Source: a virus
Lineage: Duplodnaviria > Caudoviricetes
DNA: 60,283 nt
Virus record (IMG/VR): IMGVR_UViG_3300015360_000004
Coordinates: 1 to 60,283 of that record
Reading direction: 5' to 3' (one strand)
Shown here piece by piece: positions 26,764 through 35,488 of the stretch. Every line of letters starts with the position of its first letter. Positions within the stretch are counted from its first letter, which is position 1. A program made the position numbers and the translations under genes. The notes beneath the pieces are model-generated. The model was not told the origin of the DNA. It ran no database searches and worked only from the letters and a program-made list of their open reading frames with translations.

Positions 26764-27283
26764 CTTTTCCTCTGCTCCTTTAGGCCGACTTTACAGACGG
26801 GGTAATACCCGCCGCGATTCTCGAAGGTCTTGCTCCTCGGGAATAGGTCCTTGTGGTGGACGGTATTGCAGTGCGAGCAGTGGAGATAATCCTGGATGAT
26901 GACCAGCATCTCGTCCACCACTTTGGGATTGCTGCATTTCTCGCGCAGGATGGTCGCGTAGAGGTCGATGTCAACCTTCATAGCGCCCTCTCAATCTCCG
27001 CAATCTCGTTCTTGACGCGGTTGAGGGAGTGCAGCTTCTTCTGCTTCTCCGCCAACCGTTGGAAGTTCAGAATGTTCTTCTCAAGCCCGGAAGCCCGCTG
27101 CTTCATAGCCGCGAGCTCGAAGGCCCAGACGTCCATCCTGTTCTTCATGGCCTCTACGCGGCCGGTAAGACTGACGACGTCCTTGCGGTACTCCTCAATC
27201 TTGTTTGCGCGGAAGATTATTCCATCGCAAAGCTCCGCCATCTGTGCCTGGGACTTCCTCAGGCTCTCTTCGTAGGAAAGCAT
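26760..27283 (-). other. Two small genes: Zn-finger-like (26760-26981) and coiled-coil (26978-27283)
   Basis: CSHC...YPVCK motif; heptad-like pattern. Confidence 0.6.
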
Positions 27284-27309
27284 TTTGACTCCTGGTAACC
27301 TTTTTTGGT

Positions 27310-27375
27310 CAGCTCCTTCCCCAGGGAGCCAGCACGGTTTTCACGCCTCGCAGGAGTAGCTGGGGAACGCTACTC
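27310..27375 (-). ncRNA. Structured RNA with two hairpins and complementary (kissing) loops
   Basis: GAGUAGC-GUUCCCCA-GCUACUC and UGGCUCC-CUGGGGAA-GGAGCUG; loops pair over 7 bp. Confidence 0.6.
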
Positions 27376-27728
27376 TAGGCGATGCCTAGCTCGGCCTTGA
27401 GCTTGGCCTCCTCCGCGCGCAGCTTCGCGAGCTTGGCCATGCCCTTGGCCTTGGGGTCCTTGCTATTGACATGTTTATCCAGGCGGTCCTGCGCGAGGTC
27501 GACCATGTACTGAAGCTTCGCCTTGACGCCTTCGAACTTGAACTTGGGGTCTTCGACGTGGGCGGTGAAATCCGGTCCCTTGATGCCGATGATGAGCTTT
27601 CCGGCATCGTCTTTGGTTACGGGGATTCCCCGTTCATCGACCACCAGCTCGAACTCCGCTTTGGGGGCCTTCGCGGGTTTTACTGGCTTTTCGGCTGCTG
27701 CGGCGGGTTTCTTTTCGTTCTTGGCCAT
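27375..27728 (-). CDS. Small Lys/Ala-rich basic protein
   Basis: 117 aa, KPAAAAEKPVKPAKAPKA N-terminal tail, strong RBS and strong codon bias. Confidence 0.85.
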   Translation of the reverse strand: MAKNEKKPAAAAEKPVKPAKAPKAEFELVVDERGIPVTKDDAGKLIIGIKGPDFTAHVEDPKFKFEGVKAKLQYMVDLAQDRLDKHVNSKDPKAKGMAKLAKLRAEEAKLKAELGIA

Positions 27729-27747
27729 GGTGTCCTTCCTCGTTTCC

Positions 27748-27853
27748 TATAGACATAGCTTGCCTAATACCCCGTAGGGTTCATCAGGAGGGAGTCGCTA
27801 TCTGACCCTCGACTATTGGCGGGATTTCCGCCTCAGTTTCGGCTTACTGTCTT
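27748..27853 (-). ncRNA. Type II hammerhead ribozyme candidate with a 16-nt core insertion; predicted cleavage between 27811 and 27810
   Basis: GCC-GAAAC-[stem III]-GUC-[stem I GAGGG/CCCUC]-CUGAUGA-[ACCC UACG GGGU AUUA]-GGC; loop I AUAGC complements GCUAU downstream. Confidence 0.7.
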
Positions 27854-27990
27854 ATGTGCGGGTGGTGCACTCTACACTTAGTATCGACCTGGGAGCCTGA
27901 CAGAAACTGTCCCCGGCCCCCTTTCGTATCTGGGCGGCGGTATTCGTCCTATTCCATGATTTATTCGATGCCGCGTCTCTCATATTTACA

Positions 27991-28122: not shown

Positions 28123-28150
28123 AATAAATAAAGGGCCTTCAGAGGCCCCT
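28123..28150 (-). terminator. Intrinsic terminator ending the replication operon
   Basis: AGGGGCC TCTGAA GGCCCTT TATTTATT. Confidence 0.8.
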
Positions 28151-34552: not shown

Positions 34553-34950
34553 TCCTTCTCCTTCGTGAGTTTGTAGGTGAGAACGCCCTCTTTTTCGAAC
34601 ATGAGCGCTGGCTTTTCCATCTTGTCGTGGTCGTGGCGGTAATAAATAAGGGAGATTCCCGAGTTGATGAGCAGGGTCGCGCACCTGGCGCACGGGTAAA
34701 CGGTGACGAAGAGAACCTTCATCGGGTCATCAACGCAGCACTTGGCGAGAGCGTTCTCCTCAGCGTGCGCGCAACCGCAGGCCGAGCCATCAAGCTGGCA
34801 TGACCAATCCTGACCCCGCGGTCCACCGTTGTACCCCATCGAATAGATACGCGTGAAGCTGCCATCGGTCAGGATTGCCCCGACCCGCTTCGTCTCGCAC
34901 TCAACTCTTTCCGCCAGTGAATCGGCGAAGGACATGAGGATTATTTCCAT
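34549..34950 (-). CDS. dCMP deaminase
   Basis: VGAIL, GYNG, HAEENAL, PCARC. Confidence 0.93.
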   Translation of the reverse strand: MEIILMSFADSLAERVECETKRVGAILTDGSFTRIYSMGYNGGPRGQDWSCQLDGSACGCAHAEENALAKCCVDDPMKVLFVTVYPCARCATLLINSGISLIYYRHDHDKMEKPALMFEKEGVLTYKLTKEKE

Positions 34951-34963
34951 CCTCGGTTTCGGC

Positions 34964-35488
34964 TTAGTAGCCAGAGGCCTGCCGCTCCCTTACGACTTTG
35001 TTCTTTAGCTGGAATATTTCTAGAATTTCTTCCGGTTTCATGAAGTAGGACACGTAGTTCCAGTAGGACATGAACGCATGCCTGAGAAGGCATTGAAACA
35101 CCACCTCGTTGGTCTTCGAGAGGGTTTTCTTCCATGGCTTATTCTTCAGTTCATGGCTAGCGCCAGCAAGCTGCTCCACGAAATCACGCCACCTACTGCG
35201 CGGAACCACTTCAAAGGTCCACGGCTTGATGCCACAGAGTATTAGCAACTCAAGCGTAAAGTGGAGCCCGTCGACCAGCTCGACCTTGTGCTCGTCCTCA
35301 TGGCCAGAATTGTCCTCAGCCACCGCCTCGAAAAGTTCCTCGACCGCAAACCACATCATGCTCCTTAAAACGGCCTGATGCTCAGGGTCGTCGATATCCA
35401 GTGGCCATTGAGGAATGACTCCTAAAAATCCGAGCATCGTTTCCTCCTGAAGTAGGTAGACGCGCTCAAAGCAGGTGGGTCCGGTCAC
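34964..35488 (-). CDS. All-alpha dUTPase / NTP pyrophosphatase
   Basis: EELFEA, ELVDGLHF, KNKPWK, KN.V...RQ..GY. Confidence 0.85.
   Translation of the reverse strand: MTGPTCFERVYLLQEETMLGFLGVIPQWPLDIDDPEHQAVLRSMMWFAVEELFEAVAEDNSGHEDEHKVELVDGLHFTLELLILCGIKPWTFEVVPRSRWRDFVEQLAGASHELKNKPWKKTLSKTNEVVFQCLLRHAFMSYWNYVSYFMKPEEILEIFQLKNKVVRERQASGY

What the first reader, a model, noticed from the sequence alone, without database searches (positions are those of the whole stretch)
27748..27853. Type II hammerhead ribozyme candidate with an extra hairpin inside the catalytic core
Seen on the minus strand: AGACA GUAA GCC GAAAC UG A GGCGG AAAUC CCGCC AA UA GUC / GAGGG UCAGAUAGCGACU CCCUC CUGAUGA [ACCC UACG GGGU AUUA] GGC AAGCUAUGUCU. 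GAAAC (27840-36), stem III, the GUC triplet (27813-11), stem I and CUGAUGA (27787-81) are all in the correct order and register. Stem II (GCC/GGC) forms only if a 16-nt segment with its own 4-bp tetraloop hairpin bulges out between A9 and G10.1. Loop I (AUAGC) complements GCUAU just beyond stem II. Established: type II hammerheads often use such a loop I pseudoknot and occur in phage intergenic regions, and a single extra nucleotide at A9/G10.1 is tolerated in the CChMVd viroid hammerhead. Inference: this four-stem variant would be missed by strict descriptors, and the insert may be a regulatory or protein-binding handle. It can also pair with the core UGA and switch it off. I cannot tell whether this variant is already described.
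Basis: partly seen in the sequence, partly recalled or inferred. Interest (0 to 1): 0.88.

Follow-up and report, generated by a model that had tools for sequence, protein, structure and literature searches.

The report
Possible four-helix hammerhead ribozyme, unproven
Just upstream of a small orphan gene in an uncultured phage lies an RNA with every signature of a self-cutting hammerhead ribozyme, but an extra hairpin is wedged into its core, and with no relatives to compare I cannot tell whether it cuts or is a lucky look-alike.

Summary
On the minus strand, 27852-27751 holds GAAAC, a capped stem III, GUC, a capped 5-bp stem I and CUGAUGA in hammerhead order. A 3-bp stem II (GCC/GGC) forms only if 16 nt (27780-27765) loop out between A9 and G10.1. 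Five loop-I bases pair with the tail 2 nt after stem II.

An arrangement this good is uncommon by chance. It appeared in 8 of 2720 dinucleotide shuffles of the whole genome, and 2 of those 8 also had a pseudoknot of 5 bp or more. Stem II length, linker and pseudoknot position match the Rfam type II consensus and one phage example I fetched.

Against it:
- No Rfam hammerhead model reports it, even at E<=10.
- A model built from an independent phage hammerhead misses it.
- No homologue was found in any collection, so covariation cannot be tested.
- A competing local helix (CCUGAU/AUUAGG) hides five core bases and is about isoenergetic with the active fold.

Verdict: hammerhead variant about 0.45, chance look-alike in a structured leader about 0.38. 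Earlier notes of this scan (unchecked AI notes) report hammerheads with extra core helices on other phage DNA. The papers I searched describe none.

The parts
27848..27852 (-). Outer closing helix, 5' strand (AGACA). It pairs with UGUCU at 27755-27751.
   Evidence: Sequence. Pair probabilities 0.72-0.99.
27841..27843 (-). Stem II, 5' strand (G11.3 C11.2 C11.1).
   Evidence: Sequence. Pair probabilities with GGC at 27764-27762 are 0.39-0.44.
27838..27840 (-). Core bases G12 A13 A14.
   Evidence: Sequence. Descriptor hit.
27812..27837 (-). Stem III hairpin: A15.1-U16.1, C-G, U-A, G-U; an A/AA internal loop; GGCGG/CCGCC with loop AAAUC.
   Evidence: Sequence. Pair probabilities 0.60-1.00.
27810..27811 (-). 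Predicted cleavage site, between C17 (27811) and G1.1 (27810), 82 nt before the AUG at 27728.
   Evidence: Position follows from the hammerhead numbering. Cleavage itself is inferred, not shown.
27788..27810 (-). Stem I hairpin: GAGGG/CCCUC with the 13-nt loop UCAGAUAGCGACU. Loop bases AUAGC (27801-27797) form the pseudoknot 5' strand.
   Evidence: Sequence. Stem pair probabilities 0.51-0.63. The pseudoknot starts 9 nt after the cleavage site, as in the Rfam type II consensus and in L027.
27781..27787 (-). Core bases C3 U4 G5 A6 U7 G8 A9 (CUGAUGA).
   Evidence: Sequence. One of 9 CUGAUGA sites on this strand.
27765..27780 (-). 16-nt insert between A9 and G10.1: hairpin ACCC-UACG-GGGU (27780-27769) plus linker AUUA (27768-27765). 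AUUA plus GG can pair with CCUGAU (27788-27783), which hides core bases.
   Evidence: Hairpin pair probabilities 0.76-0.97. The alternative helix has 0.45-0.73. The extended hairpin alone folds at -11.0 kcal/mol.
27762..27764 (-). Stem II, 3' strand (G10.1 G10.2 C10.3).
   Evidence: Sequence. Descriptor hit with a 16-nt insert.
27755..27759 (-). Pseudoknot 3' strand GCUAU, 2 nt (AA) after stem II. Its last U is shared with the outer helix.
   Evidence: Sequence. Chance of a Watson-Crick pseudoknot of 5 bp or more is 0.045.
27751..27755 (-). Outer closing helix, 3' strand (UGUCU).
   Evidence: Sequence. Fold.
27375..27743 (-). Downstream unit: purine-rich ribosome-binding stretch (GAGGAAGG, 27741-27734) and the 117-aa Lys/Ala-rich orphan gene (AUG at 27728).
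   Evidence: ORF list and translation. There are 11 distant homologues at 35-45% identity in 1.84 billion representatives. A soil-run contig differs from 27413-27563 at 15 positions; the 12 listed mostly lie 3 or a multiple of 3 apart.
28131..28150 (-). Terminator-like hairpin with a U-run, right after the primase-like gene. It marks the start of the 451-nt intergenic region that holds the element.
   Evidence: Terminator scan. Pfam Toprim_2 on the 709-aa ORF.

Best explanation
The element is most likely a hammerhead-lineage RNA of the type II layout: stems I and III are capped and stem II is open. It sits in the 5' leader of an orphan gene of a complete, uncultured tailed phage.

Shown:
- All invariant core bases are present in order.
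- Stem II is 3 bp with the consensus G10.1-C11.1 pair.
- A 5-bp pseudoknot joins loop I to the tail 2 nt after stem II.
- A 16-nt hairpin-plus-linker lies between A9 and G10.1, which turns the three-way junction into a four-way one.

Inferred mechanism:
- When stem II and the pseudoknot form, the RNA cuts itself between C27811 and G27810.
- The cut separates the ~130-nt upstream leader, or read-through from the replication operon, from the mRNA.
- The mRNA is left with a 5'-OH end closed into the stem I hairpin, 82 nt before the AUG. This would shield it from 5'-end-dependent decay.
- Alternatively, the linker AUUA plus GG pairs with CCUGAU. That extends the inserted hairpin and hides C3-U7, giving an OFF state of about equal stability.
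- Cleavage may therefore be slow or conditional.

Cleavage, the switch and the effect on the mRNA are all inferred.
For: - The sequence and register are exact.
- It is the only such arrangement among 14 CUGAUGA sites in the genome.
- The strict descriptor hits 8 of 2720 shuffles, and 2 of 2720 with a pseudoknot of 5 bp or more.
- About 8.5% of the genome lies outside ORFs of 50 aa or more. Lying in such a stretch on the transcribed strand is a further factor of about 0.04.
- The geometry matches real type II hammerheads. The 3-bp stem II, AA linker and a pseudoknot starting 9 nt after the cleavage site are as in the Rfam RF02276 consensus and in the phage example L027.
- L027 also has one extra base after A9 and a downstream stretch complementary to its core.
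- The hammerhead-compatible fold is -33.0 to -34.0 kcal/mol against an MFE of -34.4, before counting the pseudoknot.
- Perreault et al. 2011 (PMC3088659, passages and section 8) state three things. Most type II hammerheads have such a pseudoknot. Stem II can be 1-2 bp. Rare core insertions occur.
- De la Pena 2017 (PMC6155905, passages) says prokaryotic hammerheads are linked to phages and flank small non-conserved ORFs.
Against: - No Rfam hammerhead model reports the site. There were 0 gathering-score hits in the window. No hammerhead match appeared at E<=10 in 701-nt and 131-nt searches.
- RF02276 on the whole genome gives only two noise matches elsewhere, at 11.2 and 10.3 bits. Control genomes ring in 11 of 14. 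RF00008 and RF00163 give nothing.
- A covariance model built from the independent phage hammerhead L027, run with filters off, gives 6 matches at E<=10. None is at the site.
- No homologue of the RNA was found, so there is no covariation and no conservation evidence.
- A 16-nt hairpin at A9/G10.1 is not described in the papers I could search.
- The competing helix CCUGAU/AUUAGG is local and is transcribed before the 3' strand of stem II, so it should form first.
- The fold is not unusually stable: z = -1.66, and 12 of 200 shuffles fold at least as well.
- At about 0.3% per genome, a scan of very many windows will produce chance cases.
Confidence: 0.45

Rival explanations
1. Chance look-alike. 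The region is a structured 5' leader: three hairpins closed by the AGACA/UGUCU helix. It affects translation or stability of the orphan gene without catalysis. CUGAUGA is simply one strand of a 10-bp bulged hairpin (CCUGAU-GA-ACCC UACG GGGU-AUUAGG), and GAAAC and GUC lie at junctions by coincidence.
For: - The MFE and centroid folds use exactly this extended hairpin. It folds alone at -11.0 kcal/mol.
- AUUA is fully complementary to UGAU, which the hammerhead reading does not require.
- All Rfam hammerhead models and the L027-based model miss the site.
- The strict pattern appears in 8 of 2720 shuffles, almost always thanks to the freedom of a 0-20-nt insert; only 1 of 2720 hit with no insert.
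- There is no conservation evidence.
Against: - The joint chance is small: about 0.003 for the pattern, times 0.045 for a pseudoknot of 5 bp or more, times about 0.04 for a non-coding position on the sense strand.
- Stem II length, linker and pseudoknot position reproduce the type II consensus.
- A core-masking partner is also present next to the L027 hammerhead, so it does not speak against a ribozyme.
Confidence: 0.38
2. Disabled relic. This was once a canonical type II hammerhead. It acquired the 16-nt insertion, no longer cuts, and persists as a leader structure.
For: The core, stems and pseudoknot are intact but A9/G10.1 is interrupted. Perreault et al. report that 1-2-nt insertions elsewhere in the core (after A6, and 2a/2b) cut activity severely.
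Against: A dead ribozyme should soon lose its 11 or more invariant bases and the 5-bp pseudoknot, and none is lost here. The insert is a neat hairpin with a stable UACG loop and a linker that matches the core, which looks selected rather than accidental. There are no relatives to date the event.
Confidence: 0.12
3. A distant member of the RAGATH-33 RNA family, or another described RNA family.
For: A local match of 27819-27855 to RF03102 positions 70-105, at 14.7 bits with E 2.8, and 13.6 bits with E 0.96 in the smaller search.
Against: The gathering score is 120.4 bits. Real members are 113-nt RNAs beside tRNA genes of 67-219-kb phage records: 19 loci were fetched, and 4 of the 5 scanned exceed the cut-off. 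They have no CUGAUGA and a different architecture. Only 36 positions of the model match here.
Confidence: 0.02

Closest known systems
Type II hammerhead ribozymes of bacteria and phages (Rfam RF02276; Perreault et al. 2011, PMC3088659)
   Same: - Circular order: stem II strand, GAAA, capped stem III, UH, capped stem I, CUGAUGA, stem II strand.
- The G10.1-C11.1 pair and a short stem II.
- A Watson-Crick pseudoknot between loop I and the tail just after stem II. It starts 9 nt after the cleavage site.
- A phage intergenic setting.
   Different: - 16 nt (a hairpin plus a 4-nt linker) between A9 and G10.1.
- Stem I is 5 bp with a 13-nt loop, against about 8-9 bp with a short loop in the consensus.
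- An extra outer helix closes the whole element.
- It scores below every reporting threshold of the Rfam model.
L027 hammerhead: a probable type II hammerhead in a 165-kb phage record (29 bits, below the Rfam cut-off of 37)
   Same: A 3-bp stem II, an AA linker, a pseudoknot 9 nt from the cleavage site, an interruption at the same A9/G10.1 link, and a nearby stretch able to pair with the core.
   Different: L027 has a single extra U, not a hairpin. Its core-masking stretch lies about 20 nt downstream of the ribozyme, not inside it. Its activity is untested too.
CChMVd (+) viroid hammerhead with one extra nucleotide between A9 and G10.1 (De la Pena & Flores 2001)
   Same: An insertion at the same backbone link in a natural hammerhead. 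Its tolerance of the insertion is recalled.
   Different: One nucleotide against 16, and a type III viroid ribozyme against a type II phage element. I saw only the paper's title in a reference list; the details are recalled.
Core-insertion variants HHmeta and HHphage (saltern) and A6a and U13a (Perreault et al. 2011)
   Same: Natural hammerheads that tolerate or carry extra nucleotides in the core (passages).
   Different: Those insertions are 1-2 nt, at other positions, and most lower activity strongly under standard conditions.

Membership tests
Hammerhead ribozyme, type II (Rfam RF02276, clan CL00010) | Core strand C3 U4 G5 A6 N7 G8 A9 | tested here: met
   CUGAUGA at 27787-27781 (-).
Hammerhead ribozyme, type II (Rfam RF02276, clan CL00010) | G12 A13 A14, the A15.1-U16.1 pair, and a non-G base at position 17 | tested here: met
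   GAA at 27840-27838, A27837 paired with U27812, C27811.
Hammerhead ribozyme, type II (Rfam RF02276, clan CL00010) | Stems III and I capped, stem II open, in the right circular order | tested here: met
   My descriptor hit: stem I 5 bp, stem III 4+5 bp, stem II 3 bp.
Hammerhead ribozyme, type II (Rfam RF02276, clan CL00010) | A9 continuous with G10.1 (three-way junction; published exceptions add 1-2 nt) | tested here: not met
   16 nt (27780-27765) separate A9 from G10.1. No paper with such an insert turned up in searches.
Hammerhead ribozyme, type II (Rfam RF02276, clan CL00010) | Tertiary contact between stems I and II, in type II usually a pseudoknot of 4 bp or more just after stem II | tested here: met
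   AUAGC (27801-27797) with GCUAU (27759-27755), 2 nt after stem II. Chance of 5 bp or more is 0.045. The definition is from PMC3088659 passages. This is pairing potential only.
Hammerhead ribozyme, type II (Rfam RF02276, clan CL00010) | Covariance-model score at or above the gathering score (37 bits) | tested here: not met
   No match at E<=10 at this site. No gathering-score hit in the window.
Hammerhead ribozyme, type II (Rfam RF02276, clan CL00010) | Core conserved and stems covarying in homologues | not testable with these tools
   No homologue of the RNA was found.
Hammerhead ribozyme, type II (Rfam RF02276, clan CL00010) | Site-specific self-cleavage giving 2',3'-cyclic phosphate and 5'-OH ends | not testable with these tools
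   No RNA run holds the stretch. A bench assay is needed.
RAGATH-33 RNA (Rfam RF03102) | Full-length match at or above 120.4 bits | tested here: not met
   13.6-14.7 bits over model positions 70-105 only. True members score 128.6-139.4 bits.

The most novel reading that the evidence does not exclude
A natural four-helix hammerhead with a built-in switch. The hairpin inserted at the A9/G10.1 link, with its AUUA linker, toggles between two states. In the ON state, stem II and the loop-I pseudoknot form and the RNA cuts at 27811/27810. In the OFF state, the hairpin extends over C3-U7. This would gate release and 5'-end protection of the mRNA for an orphan basic phage protein, perhaps in response to a factor that binds the hairpin. 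It would show that the metal-binding A9/G10.1 link of the hammerhead can carry a whole helix.
Probability: 0.2. Interest if true: 0.8.

Novelty: new variant of a known kind. Interest (0 to 1): 0.45.

Why it matters
If it cuts, the hammerhead core tolerates a whole helix at the A9/G10.1 link, next to a catalytic metal site that published surveys show interrupted by at most one base. Standard covariance models would then be missing a class of phage ribozymes. The position, 82 nt before the start codon of a small orphan gene and after an operon terminator, gives a simple way to ask what phage hammerheads are for. The candidate roles are transcript separation, a 5'-OH end closed in a hairpin, and possibly switching. 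If it does not cut, it is a useful warning about how well a structured leader can imitate a ribozyme once an insert of free length is allowed.

Tried and rejected
1. Rfam. No family reached its gathering score in the window. The E<=10 searches of 701 nt and 131 nt gave no hammerhead match. RF02276, RF00008 and RF00163 on the whole genome gave nothing at the site. The intergenic region after the orphan gene (27230-27420) holds no ribozyme match.

2. RAGATH-33 lead, rejected. I fetched 19 loci with a motif taken from the consensus printed. Of the 5 loci I scanned, 4 are true members. Their architecture is unrelated to this element. A paper search for the name found 0 papers.

3. DNA relatives of the RNA.
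- blastn against phages found none.
- An exact 26-mer in viral contigs found none.
- The gapped pattern was faulty: its first gap (22-30) excluded the real spacing of 21, so that scan was wasted.
- The corrected pattern was validated on the window.
- It then found 0 matches in viral contigs and 0 in genome contigs.
- It found 2 matches in metagenome contigs. About 2 are expected by chance by my estimate. Neither L004 nor L005 forms stems I and III, on my reading.

4. Relatives through neighbouring genes.
- P0001 found none in viral contigs, none in metagenome contigs, only itself among 5.8 billion proteins, and no tblastn match in phages.
- The primase-like gene has one relative at 34% identity, L003. 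It has no intergenic gap and no CUGAUGA. Three Bacillus phages match at 23%.
- The DNA polymerase has one relative at 29% identity, L028.
- The exhaustive search gave 11 distant P0001 homologues.
The two-sequence alignment found nothing in viral contigs.
- P0008 found nothing in phages, genome contigs or plasmids.

5. Sequencing runs. No RNA holder is listed. Run X2 has no cover of the element, which says nothing either way.

6. A covariance model from the L027 hammerhead gave no match at the site. A single-sequence model is a weak test.

7. Other checks.
- Pfam, PHROGs and the Atlas give no function for P0001.
- There are no tRNA or tmRNA genes in the window.
- The weak internal repeat at 34943-34966 is a gene junction with a ribosome-binding site.
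- The promoter scan found no sigma-70-like site.

8. Literature.
- Searches (0 papers; 3 listed, not read; 2 listed; 32 found, 10 listed) turned up no hammerhead with a hairpin at A9/G10.1.
- The 'additional helix' of the preprint 10.64898/2026.09.16.752053 belongs to a twister ribozyme (passages).
- Supplements were closed. Dataset S1 and Figures S6-S8 of PMC3088659 may hold variants that I could not see.

Full report
**What is there.** The window is a complete 60,283-bp virus record with direct terminal repeats. It is a tailed phage with a large terminase subunit, major head protein, DNA polymerase, helicase and exonuclease. Nearly all genes lie on the minus strand.

The finding lies in a 451-nt intergenic region. 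Upstream is a 709-aa primase-like gene (Toprim_2), followed by a terminator-like hairpin at 28150-28131. Downstream is a 117-aa Lys/Ala-rich orphan gene whose AUG is at 27728.

- AGACA GUAA GCC, then GAAAC.
- Stem III: ACUG/UAGU plus GGCGG/CCGCC.
- GUC, then stem I (GAGGG/CCCUC) with a 13-nt loop.
- CUGAUGA, then ACCC-UACG-GGGU-AUUA.
- GGC AA GCUAU GUCU.

The predicted cut lies between C27811 and G27810, 82 nt before the AUG.

**Is it more than chance?** I wrote a descriptor for the type II layout. It requires CUGAUGA, stem I of at least 5 bp, stem III of at least 4 bp closed by A-U directly after GAA, U and a non-G base before stem I, and stem II of at least 3 bp after an insert of 0-20 nt.
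- In the real genome it hits only this site, among 14 CUGAUGA occurrences.
- In dinucleotide-preserving shuffles of the whole genome it hit 0 of 300 and 8 of 2720.
- Only 1 of the 2720 hit without an insert, so most of the chance rate comes from the free insert length.
- Of the 8 hits, 2 also allowed a Watson-Crick pseudoknot of 5 bp or more.
- For a random 13-nt loop and 10-nt tail, that pseudoknot has probability 0.045.
- A looser descriptor hit 10 of 300 shuffles.
- About 8.5% of the genome lies outside ORFs of 50 aa or more, so a non-coding position on the transcribed strand is a further factor of about 0.04.

For one genome the pattern is therefore improbable by chance, about 0.3% before the pseudoknot and location are counted. 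In a scan of very many windows some chance cases must still occur.

**Fit to real type II hammerheads.** Perreault et al. 2011 (PMC3088659; passages, section 8) make three relevant points. Most type II hammerheads have a pseudoknot of 4 bp or more between loop I and the nucleotides immediately after stem II. Stem II is often only 2 bp. Rare 1-2-nt core insertions exist and usually lower activity.

I obtained the Rfam RF02276 consensus and one phage example, L027, from a 165-kb record. L027 scores 29 bits, below the cut-off of 37. It has:
- a 3-bp stem II, an AA linker and a 4-bp pseudoknot that begins 9 nt after the cleavage site;
- one extra U between A9 and G10.1;
- a downstream CCAUCAU complementary to its core bases AUGAUGG.

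The candidate has the same 3-bp stem II and the same AA linker. Its 5-bp pseudoknot also begins 9 nt after the cleavage site (5 paired bases plus UCAG), and it is interrupted at the same backbone link. This agreement in geometry is the best positive evidence beyond the core itself.

**Energetics.** The hammerhead-compatible secondary structure evaluates to -33.0 kcal/mol, or -34.0 when the rest is free to fold. The MFE is -34.4, and the pseudoknot is not counted.

The MFE uses a competing local helix. CCUGAU pairs with AUUAGG and extends the inserted hairpin into a 10-bp bulged stem-loop, which folds alone at -11.0 kcal/mol. Its pair probabilities are 0.45-0.73, against 0.39-0.44 for stem II.

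This helix hides C3-U7. Because it is local and is made before the 3' strand of stem II, it should form first during transcription. It can be read as a built-in OFF state. It can equally be read as the true structure of a non-catalytic leader. Overall stability is unremarkable: z = -1.66 for 121 nt and 0.01 for 501 nt.

**Negative tests.**
- No Rfam family reaches its gathering score anywhere in the window.
- At E<=10, searches of 701 nt and of 131 nt around the site report no hammerhead model.
- RF02276 on the whole genome reports two noise matches elsewhere, at 11.2 and 10.3 bits. The same search rings in 11 of 14 control genomes.
- RF00008 and RF00163 report nothing.
- A covariance model built from L027 alone and run with filters off over the window gave 6 matches at E<=10, none at the site.

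These failures are expected in part. The 16-nt insert, the 5-bp stem I with a long loop and the internal loop in stem III are all penalised. They still mean that membership by the curated criterion is not met.

**The RAGATH-33 lead.** The only Rfam signal at the site was a local match to RF03102, at 14.7 and 13.6 bits with E 2.8 and 0.96. I fetched 19 loci with the consensus motif. Of 5 scanned, 4 are full-length members at 128.6-139.4 bits, lying among tRNA genes of large phages. They lack CUGAUGA and share only about 36 positions of similarity with this element. I reject this reading.

**Search for homologues.** None of the following produced a relative of the RNA:
- DNA searches. One search was wasted on a faulty gap range. 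The 2 metagenome hits are the number expected by chance and lack the stems.
- Searches through the orphan protein.
- Searches through the primase-like gene and the polymerase, which gave one relative each at 34% and 29% identity; the primase relative (L003) has no comparable intergenic region, and L028 was not examined.

The exhaustive protein search found 11 distant homologues of the orphan protein. They come from several sources.

A soil run, X2, holds pieces of a relative:
- 27187-27337 is identical.
- 27413-27563 carries 15 differences; the 12 listed mostly lie 3 or a multiple of 3 apart.

So the orphan gene is a real coding gene under purifying selection. X2 has no cover of the element. 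No RNA run is listed. Covariation and expression therefore remain untested.

**Literature.** Searches for a hammerhead with an added helix or an insertion at G10.1 returned no description of a hairpin between A9 and G10.1. The 'additional helix' in the 2026 preprint belongs to a twister ribozyme. The CChMVd single-nucleotide case is known to me by recall; here I saw only the title of the paper in a reference list. De la Pena 2017 (passages) notes the link of prokaryotic hammerheads with phages and with small non-conserved ORFs. Supplements were closed.

**Earlier notes of this scan.** Unchecked AI notes list several phage hammerheads with extra hairpins or helices in the core. Some sit at the same A9/G10.1 link, and some were reported as kept in related phages. 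Another note describes a type II subfamily with an extra U and a tail that pairs with the core.

I could check only that last point, on L027. The notes raised my prior that such variants exist. They share no sequence with this site and are not evidence for it.

**Verdict.** My estimates:
- about 0.45 that this is a hammerhead-lineage element that can self-cleave, possibly conditionally;
- about 0.38 that it is a chance look-alike within a structured leader;
- about 0.12 that it is a disabled relic;
- the remainder for other readings.

If real, it is a new structural variant of a known ribozyme class. The decisive steps are a simple in vitro cleavage assay with core, insert and compensatory mutants, and recovery of the leaders of related phages.

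Noticed in passing
L027:1501-1579 (-), in a 165-kb viral record: A probable type II hammerhead that scores 29 bits, below the Rfam cut-off of 37. It has one extra U between A9 and G10.1, a 4-bp loop-I pseudoknot, and a downstream CCAUCAU complementary to its core bases AUGAUGG.
   Followed up: partly
L006-L024 (for example L018:227-339, L008:99-211): RAGATH-33 RNAs (128.6-139.4 bits in 4 of the 5 loci scanned) lie beside tRNA genes in 67-219-kb phage records. A paper search for the name found no paper.
   Followed up: partly
window 27413-27563 and 27187-27337: A soil-metagenome run (X2) holds a 151-nt contig identical to 27187-27337. A second contig differs from 27413-27563 at 15 positions; the 12 listed mostly lie 3 or a multiple of 3 apart. 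A mosaic relative of this phage therefore exists, and the orphan gene is under purifying selection.
   Followed up: partly
window 27375-27728 (-): The 117-aa Lys/Ala-rich protein has no Pfam or PHROG family. It has 11 distant homologues in 1.84 billion representatives. Two of them are long proteins that match in 14 and 7 separate stretches (P0005, 1656 aa; P0006, 625 aa), as if the unit were repeated.
   Followed up: no
window 27852-27983 (-): A 43-codon ORF in the leader ends with the UAA inside GUAAGCC, on the 5' flank of stem II. I did not test whether it is translated.
   Followed up: no
window 34943-34966 (-): A 23-nt stretch 88% identical to GCCGAAACUGAGGCGGAAAUCC of the element (E 0.079). 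It is a stop/RBS/start junction between two genes and is probably chance.
   Followed up: yes
window 27310-27375 (-): The 91-nt gap after the orphan gene has only weak, sub-threshold Rfam matches (best: COG3860 RNA, 14.9 bits, E 0.26) and no ribozyme match.
   Followed up: partly
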